From Mobula birostris (taxonomy: Eukaryota), in contig NC_092388.1 in assembly GCF_030028105.1 (NCBI RefSeq), positions 15,929,684-15,993,683 on the forward strand: a DNA stretch of 64,000 bases, written 5' to 3'. Positions 13,101 to 16,100 of this stretch are shown here, piece by piece; within the stretch, counting starts at the first letter, position 1, and the number at the start of each line of letters is the position of its first letter. The position numbers were made by a program.

Positions 13101-16100
13101 ATTGTGCTAACTACTATAGTGATTTTCTTTTAAACCACTTACTTATTTTCAAGTGTTGACGCCACCGAAAAGGCTAACAAGCATGAGGTTTTGATCTTTG
13201 GTAGGACAAACCAGGGTAGAACTTACATGGTGAGCTGCTGGGTACTGAGGAATCCAGTAGACTGGGGGATCTGGAAATATAGATCCATAATTCCTTGAAA
13301 GTAGTGTCACAAGTACATAGGGTCATAAAGAGAGCTTTTGGCATATCCGGCTTCATAAATCAGAGTATACAGGACTTGGGATGTTATGCTGAAGTTGTAC
13401 AAGATTTTGATGAGGCCTGATTTGGAGTGTTGTGTGCAGTTTTGGTCACCTACCCACAGGAAATATATCAGTAAGATTGAAGCAGAGCAAATTTACAAGG
13501 ATGTTGCCTGGTCTTGAGGATCTGAGTTAGAGAAAAAGGCTGAATAGGTTAGGACCTTATTCTTTACTGCGTAGGAAAATAAGGAGAGACTTGAGAGAGG
13601 TATACAAAATTATGAGAGGGTAAATGTAATCGGTCATTTTCCACTGAGGTTGGATTAAGCTAGAACTAGAGGTCATGGGTTAAGAGTGTCATGTTCAAGC
13701 TACACATGAGGGGGAAATCCTTCACTCAGAGAGTGGGAGAGTGTTGAATGAGCAGCCAGTGGAAATGTTCGATACGGGCTCGATTTTAACATTTAAGAGG
13801 AATTTGGATAGGTGCATGGATAGGAAGAGTATGAGGGGCTATGACCTGGGTGCAGGTCAATGGAATTAGGCAGATTAATAGTTCAGTATGGACGAGGTGG
13901 GCCGAAGGGCCTGTTTCTGAAATCGGTTAACTCGTCCTTTCTTTCTCTGCTGTTAAAGGGTGCAGTGTTAAAGCTTCTTGTATATTTGCAAGTTCAAATC
14001 CAGCCTGTTTCATTAACACTGCCACTTTTGCTTTGATTTTTACTTTAACACTGGTTGGTCTGTCTGCACGAGTGACGTTGATTTATTTATTTACAGATAC
14101 AGCAACATAACTGGCTCTTCCAGCCCTATGGGCTCATGCCACCCAAATACACCCACGTGACCAATTACCTACTAATCATATGTCTTTGGGAATGTGGGAG
14201 GAAACCACAGCACCCGGAGGAAACCCACGCAGTTAGCGGGGGCAAAGTACAAACTCCATTCAGACAGTGGCAGAATTGAACCTGGGTCTCTGGCACTGCA
14301 ATTGTGCTTTGCTAACAACCTACCCCAAGCTTTACAGTACCTGGTACAAACAGGTGGTCTCCCATCCAAGAACAGACCAGGCCTGAGCCTGCTTAGTTTT
14401 CGAAATGAGACGAGACTGGGCATTTGCAGGTTAGAATGGCTGTAGGCAGCCAAACCCACGCTTCCTGCATGGCAGGTCAGAAACCTACCAGTGAACCACC
14501 AAAGCAGATAAACTGTCGCTGCCTGAGTTTCCTCCCCCTGAACTGTACACTTACCGGGTGTAATTGGTCACGTGGGTGTATTTGGGTGGCATGAGCCCAT
14601 AGGGCTGGAAGAGCCAGTTATGTTGCTGTATCTGTAAATAAATAAATCAATGTCACTCGTGCAGACGGACCAACCAGTGTTAAAGTAAAAATCAAAGCAA
14701 AAGTGGCAGCGTTAGTGAAACAGGCTGGATTTGAACTTGCAAATATGCAAGAAGCTTTAACACTGCAACCTTTAACAGCTTCTATGCTCAGATACTGTCT
14801 GCCATATTTGTTATTTTGGCCCTTTCTTTAGGGCTTTGTGATAAGCACAATTAAAGAAGATTCACAGGCGGGATGAGGATAATACTTTTTTCAGTTATTT
14901 TTAACAACACATTGCCAGAACTGAAGACTATCCTTGTCGATAATTTTTGGATGGGCTTTTAATGATATAGAACATCGAACAATACAGGTCTTTTGGCCCA
15001 CGATTTTGAGACGACTTTATAAACTACTCTAAGATCAATCTAACCCTTTCCTTCCACAAACCCCTCCGTTTTTTTCTTTCATGCATGTGCCTATCTAAGG
15101 ATCTCGTAAATGTTATTAGTGTATCTGCCTGTACCACCACCTCTGGCAGTACGTTTCATGTTCCTACCTGTGTAAAAAAAAACTTACCTCTGATATCCTG
15201 TATATTCCTTCCTCCAATCACCTCAAAACTATGCCTCTCGTATTATCCATTTCTGCCCTCAGAAAAAGCCTTTCTCTATCCACTTAATCTTTGCCTCTTA
15301 TGACCTTGTACAACTGTATCAAATCACCTCTCATCCTCCTTCACTCCAAAGAGAAAAGCCCTAGCTTCCTAACTAATGTACATAATGACACCTGGAGATT
15401 TTTAAGAATTTATTTAGTGATAGGGGGCATAGTAGGTCCTTCCGGCCCTTCGAGTCATGCCTCCCCAACAGCTTCACAACTCCCGTTAACTCTCGCCTGA
15501 CCACGCAGTGACCAGTCAACCCACCCAGCACCTCCCTGGACTCAGACAGGAAGCCAGAGCACCCGCGGAAAACCCGCACGTTCCACGGGAAGGACGCCCA
15601 AAGACTCCCCACAGAATGGCACCAGTATCGAACCCCAAACTCCGAAATGCCCCGAGCTGCAACAGCCATAGCATAGGGATGTGACTCTGGTCTAACACCA
15701 GGTCATCTCAATATCATTTTGCTTGCATCATTATCATGTAACGAATATATCCACGTTCATGATATTTGCTTCTTAGGCACCAATGCCTCACAGAACACAG
15801 TCATGTCAATAAGCCCTGCAATTACTTCTAAAGGAAATATTTCTGTCTGTCATGGTTACAACAGCATCACAGAAATTCAAATTTGGGGTTAACATGCCAT
15901 TTCAAATTCAAGATCATCATTACCGCCTCGATTCAAGATGTTCCGCAGACGCTAGAAATCCAGCGTAACGCACACAAAAGTCTGCGGGGACTCAGCAGGG
16001 GAAGCAGCATTGATGGAGAGAAATAAAGAGTCAGTGTTTTGGGCTGAGGCCCTTCATCAGGACTGAGAATTTTTGTTCTACTTCCAAGGTGACTTGTTTT

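What the first reader, a model, noticed from the sequence alone, without database searches (positions are those of the whole stretch)
14085..14505. Three Pol III-derived modules fused head-to-tail: tRNA-Gly(GCC) nt 1-58, full-length 5S rRNA, V-SINE
Seen: on the minus strand a tRNA-Gly(GCC) sequence runs from +1 to the end of its B-box region (14505-14448) and joins with no spacer to nt 1 of a complete 5S rRNA copy (14447-14327). That copy joins within a few bases to a V-SINE lacking its first bases. The unit starts at the mature tRNA 5' end and spans both mature 5S ends, with no 5S spacer DNA. Known: 5S-derived (SINE3), 5S+tRNA (AmnSINE1) and tRNA/5S hybrid (fruit-bat MEG-TR) SINEs exist; I know no tRNA-Gly/5S/V-SINE trimer. 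Inference: either a one-off retro-chimera made by RT template switching across three small RNAs, or a member of an undescribed SINE family stacking type-2 and type-1 Pol III promoters.
Basis: partly seen in the sequence, partly recalled or inferred. Interest (0 to 1): 0.75.

Follow-up and report, generated by a model that had tools for sequence, protein, structure and literature searches.

The report
tRNA-Gly, 5S and SINE retro-fusion
Copies of three small RNAs (the front of a glycine tRNA, a whole 5S rRNA and a V-type SINE) are joined end to end in one old, decayed insertion, most likely a dead one-off by-product of reverse transcriptase hopping between templates.

Summary
The three modules are real and collinear on the minus strand. 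The 5S copy (14447-14327) is full length and passes Rfam's gathering score. The V-SINE (14326-14081) matches a model built only from other copies in the window (E 1.8e-38). The tRNA-Gly(GCC) part (14505-14451) gets no covariance-model or ARAGORN support. It does match a published elasmobranch 5' tRNA-Gly fragment at 28 of 34 bases, read by eye.

- The tRNA similarity stops at about position 57, inside the B box.
- Three unassigned bases (gct) lie between the tRNA part and 5S nt 1.

Joints at RNA termini, with no spacer DNA, point to an RNA-mediated origin. My best reading is an ancient one-off tripartite retro-chimera made by two template jumps (confidence 0.5). An undescribed composite SINE family is not excluded (about 0.2). 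No eukaryotic genome, Dfam or Repbase was reachable, so copy number, the decisive test, stayed unchecked. No second copy of the tRNA or 5S module lies in the 64-kb window, and no target-site duplication was found.

The parts
14451..14505 (-). tRNA-Gly(GCC)-like 5' part, mature nt +1 to about position 57. The A-box region is present and the B box is truncated. Decayed.
   Evidence: 28 of 34 bases (by eye) identical to the published Torpedo 5'-trfRNA-Gly. Translation hits tandem tRNA-Gly-type proteins. No tRNA call by ARAGORN or Rfam.
14448..14450 (-). Three bases (gct) between the tRNA part and 5S nt 1. They are either untemplated addition at a template jump or mutated tRNA positions 58-60.
   Evidence: Sequence. 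The Rfam 5S alignment starts at 14447.
14327..14447 (-). Full-length 5S rRNA copy, a pseudogene.
   Evidence: RF00001, 44.6 bits against gathering score 38, model 1-120/120, not truncated. 22 positions are flagged as lying in non-standard pairs. BLASTP of its translation against a 5S-array translation gives 25/41 identical, E 3e-14.
14081..14326 (-). tRNA-derived SINE with a V-type conserved core, its own B box at 14272-14282, and a 3' tail ending in (aaat)3.
   Evidence: nhmmer profile of 7 other window copies: 14316-14083, E 1.8e-38. blastn 77-90% identity to copies at 11236-11366, 12954-13108 and 25066-25113. B-box-like GGTTCAATTCT.
14506..14559 (-). 54-nt stretch of unassigned origin between the inverted arm and the tRNA start.
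   Evidence: No Rfam match. No other copy in the window. A 10-nt match to the V core (14527-14536, + strand) appears only with a profile that includes this locus and not with the independent profile.
13949..14168 (.). Inverted-repeat arm A: the last 88 nt of the SINE (14168-14081) plus 132 nt of 3' flank (14080-13949).
   Evidence: the repeat finder I1, 220 nt, 97%. blastn E 1.3e-104. 6 mismatches, all in the flank part, 3 of them at CpG.
14560..14779 (.). Inverted-repeat arm A': an inverted copy of arm A, 391 nt away from it.
   Evidence: The whole unit folds as a 220-nt stem, z-score -54.7.

Best explanation
This is an ancient, dead, one-off tripartite retro-chimera.

Proposed sequence of events: a LINE reverse transcriptase began target-primed reverse transcription on a V-SINE RNA, recognised through its LINE-type 3' tail. 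It copied that RNA to, or nearly to, its 5' end. It then jumped to the 3' end of a 5S rRNA and copied it to nt 1. It added about 3 untemplated bases, jumped again onto a tRNA-Gly(GCC) just 5' of position 58, and ran to the tRNA's mature 5' end. The cDNA was then joined to the chromosome.

The copy has since decayed about as much as neighbouring V-SINE copies. Much later, a 220-nt piece (SINE tail plus 3' flank) was duplicated in inverted orientation 54 nt upstream of the tRNA start.

Shown: the modules, their order and orientation, the joints at RNA termini, the decay and the inverted duplication. Inferred: the reverse transcriptase, the two jumps, the order of events and the single-copy status.

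Why the tRNA part ends at 57 is inference from established knowledge. m1A58 blocks reverse transcriptases, so only copying that starts 5' of it can give a long product. The template could equally have been a 5' tRNA fragment cut in the T loop.
For: (1) All three modules are sense-oriented and collinear, and they are joined at RNA ends. The tRNA part starts at +1, the 5S copy covers model positions 1-120 untruncated and keeps two terminal T, and no 5S spacer or tRNA flank DNA is present. This is the architecture of template-switch chimeras. Tripartite cases are described in a fungus and in mouse (PMC2104539, abstract and section 8; two further human elements there lack direct repeats).

(2) The 3-nt extra stretch at the tRNA/5S joint fits untemplated addition at a jump (recalled from in-vitro work on R2 reverse transcriptase).

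(3) The tRNA-Gly B box is truncated. No match to the B-box consensus within 2 mismatches lies at the junction, while the V-SINE's own B box is found. The 5' module therefore lacks a complete type-2 promoter, which argues against a self-propagating family.

(4) No second copy of the tRNA-Gly or 5S module lies in 64 kb (blastn; nhmmer, only self at E<1). None of the 7 other V-SINE copies in the window has 5S-like sequence beside it.

(5) The V-SINE module is as decayed as its neighbours. It differs from a leave-one-out consensus at 59/230 = 25.7%, against 26-39% for the 7 others. The tRNA part differs at 6/34 from the published fragment. The 5S copy has 22 positions in broken pairs. This fits one old event.

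(6) Of 16 hits in 1.84 billion representative proteins, 0 carry tRNA-Gly-type and 5S-type peptides together.
Against: Copy number in the source genome was not measured; a 64-kb window says almost nothing about a family of a few hundred or thousand copies.

No target-site duplication of 6 nt or more flanks the trimer or any alternative boundary, so a single integration event is not demonstrated. Two control V-SINE copies also lack one.

Tripartite chimeras are very rare, so a modest family is about as likely a priori to turn up in a random window (my rough estimate, not a tool result).

The protein-space search is a weak negative: it found no hit to the V-SINE part either.

The tRNA part has no covariance-model support.

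The consensus used for the decay estimate is crude, built from 7 heterogeneous copies. A young insertion from an already diverged master is therefore not excluded.
Confidence: 0.5

Rival explanations
1. It is a member of an undescribed composite SINE family (tRNA-Gly head, then 5S, then V-SINE). The family would be transcribed by Pol III from the tRNA-Gly start and mobilised through the V-SINE tail.
For: Complex SINEs make up 13% of the families in SINEBase (PMC3531059, passages). 5S heads fused to tRNA-derived SINE bodies have repeatedly founded families: HaSE3 (PMC3272025, abstract and section 20), and AmnSINE1 and MEG-TR (listed in Table 2 of PMC10946416). The element has no T4 run from 14560 down to 13900 on its sense strand. 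A modest family is about as likely a priori as a rare tripartite one-off to be met in a random window (my estimate).
Against: The B box of the would-be driving tRNA module is truncated. Only one copy lies in the window. 0 of 16 protein-space hits carry both peptides. No such family came up in the literature searches or in the 2024 review table of 5S-derived elements. The SINEBase copy-number criterion (100 or more copies) is untested.
Confidence: 0.2
2. A 5S-headed V-SINE (the V-type analogue of AmnSINE1 or HaSE3, transcribed from the 5S internal promoter) is a real family. This copy alone picked up a tRNA-Gly piece by a single template jump at the end of reverse transcription.
For: Only one jump is needed. 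A 5S type-1 promoter would start at 5S nt 1, which is exactly where the joint to the tRNA piece lies. 5S-plus-tRNA-SINE chimeras that became families are documented (PMC3272025 section 20).
Against: No other 5S-like sequence lies in the window, and none of the 7 other V-SINE copies has one upstream. No 5S-derived SINE of cartilaginous fishes appears in the review table. The window's taxon was not established.
Confidence: 0.12
3. The structure arose by sequential independent events: separate 5S and tRNA retro-pseudogene insertions that happened to land at the 5' end of an older V-SINE, or a decayed genomic tRNA/5S gene cluster hit by a SINE.
For: The region is crowded with SINEs: four minus-strand V-SINE copies lie between 11.1 and 15.6 kb. 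No target-site duplication ties the modules into one event.
Against: Both joints fall at RNA termini, within 0-3 nt. No A-rich or LINE-type tail follows the tRNA or 5S part. There is no 5S spacer and no terminator T-run. A tRNA gene cut at about 57 and abutting 5S nt 1 is not a gene arrangement.
Confidence: 0.06
4. It is an assembly or read chimera that joins unrelated repeats.
For: A 220-nt inverted repeat surrounds the unit, and palindromic structures are a known source of long-read artefacts (recalled). No reads were available.
Against: The module junctions lie in the unique 391-nt centre and not at the repeat borders. The arms differ at 6 of 220 positions, 3 of them CpG transitions, which looks like natural decay. 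The joints coincide with RNA termini, which an assembler would not produce.
Confidence: 0.05

Closest known systems
Tripartite chimeric retroelements made by double template switching: WEIRD/Mg-SINE/MGL in Magnaporthe, and B2/U6/L1 in mouse (PMC2104539, abstract and section 8 read)
   Same: Three different transcripts are fused directly, in the same orientation. The 5'-most parts are small-RNA copies that reach the RNA's 5' end, and the 3'-most part carries the tail used for priming.
   Different: Here all three parts are Pol III products. The 3' vehicle is a SINE with a LINE-type (aaat)n tail rather than a LINE. The 5'-most part is a tRNA piece ending at about position 57. No flanking direct repeats were found, whereas the fungal and mouse cases have 14-16 bp repeats.
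HaSE3 of Helicoverpa armigera (PMC3272025, abstract and section 20 read)
   Same: A 5S rRNA copy is fused to the body and tail of a tRNA-derived SINE. The authors explain it by template switching from SINE RNA to 5S rRNA.
   Different: HaSE3 is a multi-copy family with the 5S part as its 5' head. Here the 5S part is internal, a tRNA-Gly piece lies in front of it, and multi-copy status is untested.
AmnSINE1, SINE3 and OS-SINE1, the 5S-headed SINEs (listed in Table 2 of PMC10946416; their structures are recalled, the original papers were not read)
   Same: A 5S-derived module is joined to a SINE body with a conserved central domain and a LINE-type tail.
   Different: Those carry the Deu domain (recalled) and have 5S at the very 5' end. 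This one has a V-type core, and 5S is in second position.
MEG-TR of fruit bats (named in Table 2 of PMC10946416; Gogolevsky 2009 is not held, so its structure is recalled only)
   Same: tRNA-derived and 5S-derived parts occur in one element.
   Different: MEG-TR is mammalian and L1-dependent with an A-rich tail (recalled), and it is a family of many copies. No V-SINE module is involved. I could not compare sequence or junction positions.
L1 chimeric insertions with 5S rRNA or tRNA (bioRxiv 10.1101/2025.02.02.635956, passages read)
   Same: 5S rRNA and tRNA pieces are captured during LINE-mediated insertion, and the tRNA pieces are partial.
   Different: There the 5S and tRNA pieces are mostly antisense to L1. 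The 5S is truncated at about 46 or 90, and the tRNAs are half-length (1-37). The authors attribute this to twin priming. Here both pieces are sense, the 5S is complete, and the tRNA runs 1 to about 57.

Membership tests
5S rRNA (Rfam RF00001) | Score at or above the curated gathering score over the full model | tested here: met
   44.6 bits against 38, model 1-120/120, untruncated. It is a pseudogene: 22 positions are flagged in non-standard pairs.
tRNA (Rfam tRNA model; ARAGORN) | Covariance-model or cloverleaf detection | tested here: not met
   0 genes by ARAGORN. No tRNA match at E<=10 in 64 kb, 951 nt or 111 nt. This is expected for a piece that lacks its 3' third, but it is still unmet.
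tRNA-Gly(GCC)-derived sequence | Sequence identity to a published tRNA-Gly(GCC) 5' part, with GCC at the anticodon place | tested here: met
   28/34 identical by eye to the Torpedo 5'-trfRNA-Gly. Translation matches tandem tRNA-Gly-type proteins: P0015, BLASTP E 2e-07.
V-SINE superfamily | tRNA-related head, the conserved central V domain and a LINE-derived tail | tested here: inconclusive
   The copy matches a profile of 7 other window copies at E 1.8e-38, and the core is the best-conserved part (89.8% over 49 nt). The name 'V domain' is recalled. Ogiwara 2002 is not held, and a literature search with two core motifs found 0 papers.
Template-switch chimeric retroelement | Copies of different transcripts fused directly, in the same orientation, with joints at RNA ends | tested here: met
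   tRNA +1, 5S nt 1 to its 3' end, and a 0-3 nt gap at the joints.
Template-switch chimeric retroelement | Flanking target-site duplication showing one integration event | tested here: not met
   No shared word of 6 nt or more at the expected places for 5 alternative boundaries. The 2 control V-SINE copies also have none, so the test has little power here. The 5' flank was altered by the inverted duplication.
SINE family (SINEBase definition, PMC3531059 passages) | Present in at least 100 interspersed copies per genome | not testable with these tools
   No eukaryotic genome or repeat library was reachable. There is 1 copy in the 64-kb window.
SINE family (SINEBase definition) | Under 1 kb, with at least 60% identity to a tRNA, 5S or 7SL RNA over at least 60 nt | tested here: met
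   The unit is 425 nt (14505-14081). The 5S module meets the spirit of the criterion through the Rfam full-length match. The tRNA-Gly part is only 55 nt.
SINE family driven by its 5' tRNA module | Complete A and B boxes in the 5'-most module | tested here: not met
   No B-box match within 2 mismatches at 14446-14460. The tRNA similarity ends at about position 57. SINEBase itself treats the boxes as an indication only.
5S-headed SINEs (SINE3/AmnSINE1 type) | The 5S-derived module lies at the 5' end of the element | tested here: not met
   55 nt of tRNA-Gly plus 3 nt lie 5' of 5S nt 1. This holds for the trimer as a unit; it does not exclude a 5S/V-SINE parent family.

The most novel reading that the evidence does not exclude
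The trimer is one copy of a low-copy, undescribed composite SINE family, presumably of a cartilaginous fish. In such a family a tRNA-Gly-derived piece and a 5S-derived type-1 promoter would be stacked in front of a tRNA-derived V-SINE. That would be a V-type counterpart of AmnSINE1 with an extra head, and possibly a snapshot of how new SINE heads are tried out.
Probability: 0.2. Interest if true: 0.6.

Novelty: new member of a known kind. Interest (0 to 1): 0.35.

Why it matters
New SINE families are thought to be born when a LINE reverse transcriptase jumps from one template to a small Pol III RNA. PMC5499810 (passages) and PMC3272025 (section 20) both state this view. This locus looks like a frozen product of two such jumps in a row, made entirely of Pol III RNAs and carried by a SINE rather than a LINE.

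If it is a one-off, it adds a vertebrate, non-mammalian case to the few tripartite chimeras known. It would also suggest that serial jumping among tRNA, 5S and SINE RNAs happens with LINEs other than L1.

If it is a family, it would be a new composite SINE architecture. Either way it is a decayed non-coding insertion with no sign of present function.

Tried and rejected
**Covariance models for the tRNA part.** Rfam on 64 kb, 951 nt and 111 nt, plus ARAGORN, gave no tRNA.

**Other copies in the window.** blastn and nhmmer with each module found only the locus itself.

**Other copies through protein space.** I used the 131-residue stop-to-stop frame 14172-14567 (-) purely as a search handle.
- The word-index search of residues 19-82 found nothing among proteins of 72-230 aa.
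- phmmer over 1.84 billion representatives gave 16 hits. By the peptide motifs, 11 are 5S-type only, 4 are tRNA-Gly-type only, 1 (P0013) is neither, and 0 carry both.
- This is a weak negative, because only one frame was tried and the V-SINE part got no hit either.

**Target-site duplications.** None of 6 nt or more was found at five alternative boundaries.

**The 54-nt spacer as an old inverted V-SINE piece.** It is suggested by a profile that includes this locus but not by the independent profile. I left this open and treat it as probably chance.

**One-event model.** In this model the cDNA snaps back on itself and copies the tail plus flank. I rejected it as the simplest reading, because the arms differ by 2.7% while the modules look about ten times more decayed. 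It would hold only if the source was an already diverged master.

**Double-ended priming at a pre-existing palindrome.** I considered this because all 6 arm mismatches lie in the flank part (0/88 against 6/132; my calculation gives about 0.045). I rejected it because the repeat runs unbroken through the tail/flank border with the same (aaat)3.

**Dating by divergence from cellular 5S.** My comparison rests on a recalled sequence, so it is not used as evidence.

- Genome contigs was not scanned, because it holds only bacterial and archaeal genomes.
- Ogiwara 2002 is not held, and I did not look up Gogolevsky 2009.
- The taxon of the window was not established. 'Cartilaginous fish' rests on recalled repeat types.
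Full report
**What is there.** All features below read 5' to 3' on the minus strand.

| Coordinates | Feature |
|---|---|
| 14779-14560 | Inverted-repeat arm A' |
| 14559-14506 | 54 nt of unassigned sequence |
| 14505-14451 | 55-nt tRNA-Gly(GCC)-like piece |
| 14450-14448 | Three bases, gct |
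| 14447-14327 | Complete 5S rRNA copy |
| 14326-14081 | tRNA-derived SINE with a V-type core, ending in (aaat)3 |
| 14080-13949 | 132 nt of 3' flank |

The last 88 nt of the SINE plus those 132 nt of flank form arm A (14168-13949) of a 220-nt inverted repeat. Arm A is 97% complementary to arm A', with 391 nt between the arms (blastn E 1.3e-104; folds as one long stem, z -54.7).

**The 5S module.** It is the only Rfam match above a gathering score in the whole window. RF00001 scores 44.6 bits against 38, with model positions 1-120 of 120 and no truncation (same on the sub-stretch). Twenty-two positions are flagged as lying in non-standard pairs, so it is a decayed pseudogene. Its translation is 25/41 identical to a protein that is evidently a reading-frame image of a 5S gene.

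**The SINE module.**
- blastn finds copies at 11236-11366, 12954-13108 and 25066-25113 at 77-90% identity.
- An nhmmer profile built from seven other window copies, without this one, hits 14316-14083 at E 1.8e-38.
- The label 'V-SINE' is recalled. The defining paper is not held, and a text search with two core motifs found no paper.
- Whether the copy lacks its first 10-20 nt or has a 12-nt internal deletion near the 5' end cannot be told from the alignments.

**The tRNA module.**
- It fails every structure-aware test. ARAGORN finds 0 genes, and Rfam finds no tRNA at E<=10 on 64 kb, 951 nt or 111 nt.
- The sequence identity is nevertheless clear. Window 14505-14472 matches the 34-nt 5'-trfRNA-Gly of the electric ray Torpedo californica, printed in a table of PMC4597359, at 28 of 34 positions. 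This is my count by eye, with mismatches at positions 3, 15, 22, 23, 28 and 29. GCC lies where the anticodon should be.
- The translated frame independently hits four proteins built of tandem units carrying the peptide that this published fragment encodes (P0015 BLASTP E 2e-07).
- The similarity ends at 14451, about standard position 57 (numbering recalled). The B box is therefore cut in the middle. The junction does not match the B-box consensus within two mismatches, whereas the SINE's own B box at 14272-14282 does.

**Origin.** The joints fall at RNA ends: tRNA +1, 5S nt 1, and the 5S 3' end with two terminal T. There is no 5S spacer, no terminator run and no tRNA flank, and all modules point the same way. 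No DNA-level arrangement of genes explains this. Copying of RNAs by a reverse transcriptase that changes template does.

Such chimeras are documented, including tripartite ones attributed to double jumps. PMC2104539 (abstract and section 8) describes WEIRD/Mg-SINE/MGL in a fungus and B2/U6/L1 in mouse. A 5S rRNA joined to a tRNA-derived SINE by the same route is the proposed origin of HaSE3 (PMC3272025, section 20). In primate L1 chimeras the 5S and tRNA pieces are mostly antisense and truncated (bioRxiv 10.1101/2025.02.02.635956, passages). This locus is not of that twin-priming type.

The three extra bases at the tRNA/5S joint fit untemplated addition at a jump (recalled). The stop of the tRNA part just before position 58 fits the block that m1A58 poses to reverse transcriptases, or a template cut in the T loop. 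Both are inference.

**One-off or family?** This is the question that matters, and I could not answer it. Only window.fa lay on the script machine.

Evidence that leans to a one-off:
- The truncated B box of the 5'-most module.
- A 5S-type promoter would start at 5S nt 1 and drop the tRNA piece (established knowledge).
- There is no second tRNA-Gly or 5S module in the window.
- None of seven other V-SINE copies has 5S-like sequence beside it.
- 0 of 16 hits in 1.84 billion representative proteins carry both peptides.
- No such family appears in four literature searches or in the 2024 review table of 5S-derived elements (PMC10946416).

Evidence against leaning too far:
- 64 kb cannot exclude a family of hundreds or thousands of copies.
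- The protein-space search also missed the abundant V-SINE part.
- Tripartite one-offs are so rare that a modest family is about as likely a priori (my estimate).
- No target-site duplication was found for any boundary, although two control SINE copies lack one too.

**Age and the inverted repeat.**
- The SINE module differs from a leave-one-out consensus at 59/230 positions (25.7%), within the range of the other seven copies (26-39%). The consensus is crude.
- The two repeat arms differ at only 6/220 positions. Three of these are CpG transitions, and all six lie in the flank part. The window has CpG observed/expected of 0.32.
- The natural-looking mismatches argue against an assembly artefact.
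- The low divergence suggests the inverted duplication is much younger than the trimer. It would be a separate, later event that also rewrote the trimer's 5' flank.
- A single-event model, in which the cDNA snaps back, would require a source that was already diverged. I rank it low.

**Verdict.** The RNA-mediated fusion is well supported. The most likely reading is an ancient, dead, one-off tripartite retro-chimera (0.5). A new composite SINE family (0.2) or a 5S-headed V-SINE family member with a one-off tRNA cap (0.12) remains open. Sequential insertions (0.06) and artefact (0.05) are unlikely.

**Housekeeping.** I do not take the contig for human. The N run at 33146-33296 was left alone.

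Noticed in passing
13949-14168 and 14560-14779: A 220-nt inverted duplication at 97% identity, made of the SINE tail (88 nt) plus 3' flank (132 nt). All 6 mismatches lie in the flank part, and 3 are at CpG. Its mechanism is unknown: template switch during replication or repair, or a snap-back.
   Followed up: partly
11131-11417, 12856-13128, 14077-14327, 15401-15615 (all minus strand); also 2328-2540, 24983-25220, 30519-30642 (-) and 32940-33068 (+): The window is dense in old V-type SINE copies. Four lie in the same orientation within 4.5 kb around the finding. They fall into at least two tail types; the finding's tail type recurs only in the copy at 30519-30642.
   Followed up: partly
13991-14001 (+) and 14727-14737 (-): The duplicated 'flank' itself contains a B-box-like motif (AGTTCAAATCC) like that of the V-SINE copy at 25148-25158. 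The flank may therefore be a still older, inverted tRNA-derived SINE head fragment.
   Followed up: no
13800-13948 (-): Directly outside arm A another repeat-like sequence begins. By recall it resembles a very common elasmobranch interspersed repeat. A similar motif lies beside the hairpin at about 18195-18210.
   Followed up: no
18119-18194: A near-perfect hairpin of about 35-nt arms gives sub-threshold miRNA-family matches on both strands (mir-4650 at 29.9 and 28.5 bits against 80.7; MIR5380 at 35.4 against 150; sequence). It is probably part of a repeat and not a curated miRNA.
   Followed up: partly
35996-36646 (+), 24111-24557 (-), 58136-58537 (-), 61237-61734 (+): These are degenerate non-LTR retrotransposon reading frames. 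Two match Pfam ALKBH8_N above its cutoff (25.2 and 32.5 bits against 21). By recall, that domain often lights up on LINE reverse-transcriptase C-termini. RVT_1 and zf-RVT score below their cutoffs. None shares the finding's SINE tail.
   Followed up: partly
33146-33296: A run of 151 N, either an assembly gap or masking. It was left untouched.
   Followed up: no
14172-14567 (-): A 131-codon stop-free frame runs across the spacer, tRNA, 5S and SINE. It is chance, not a gene. Its only database relatives are reading-frame images of 5S and tRNA-Gly arrays.
   Followed up: yes
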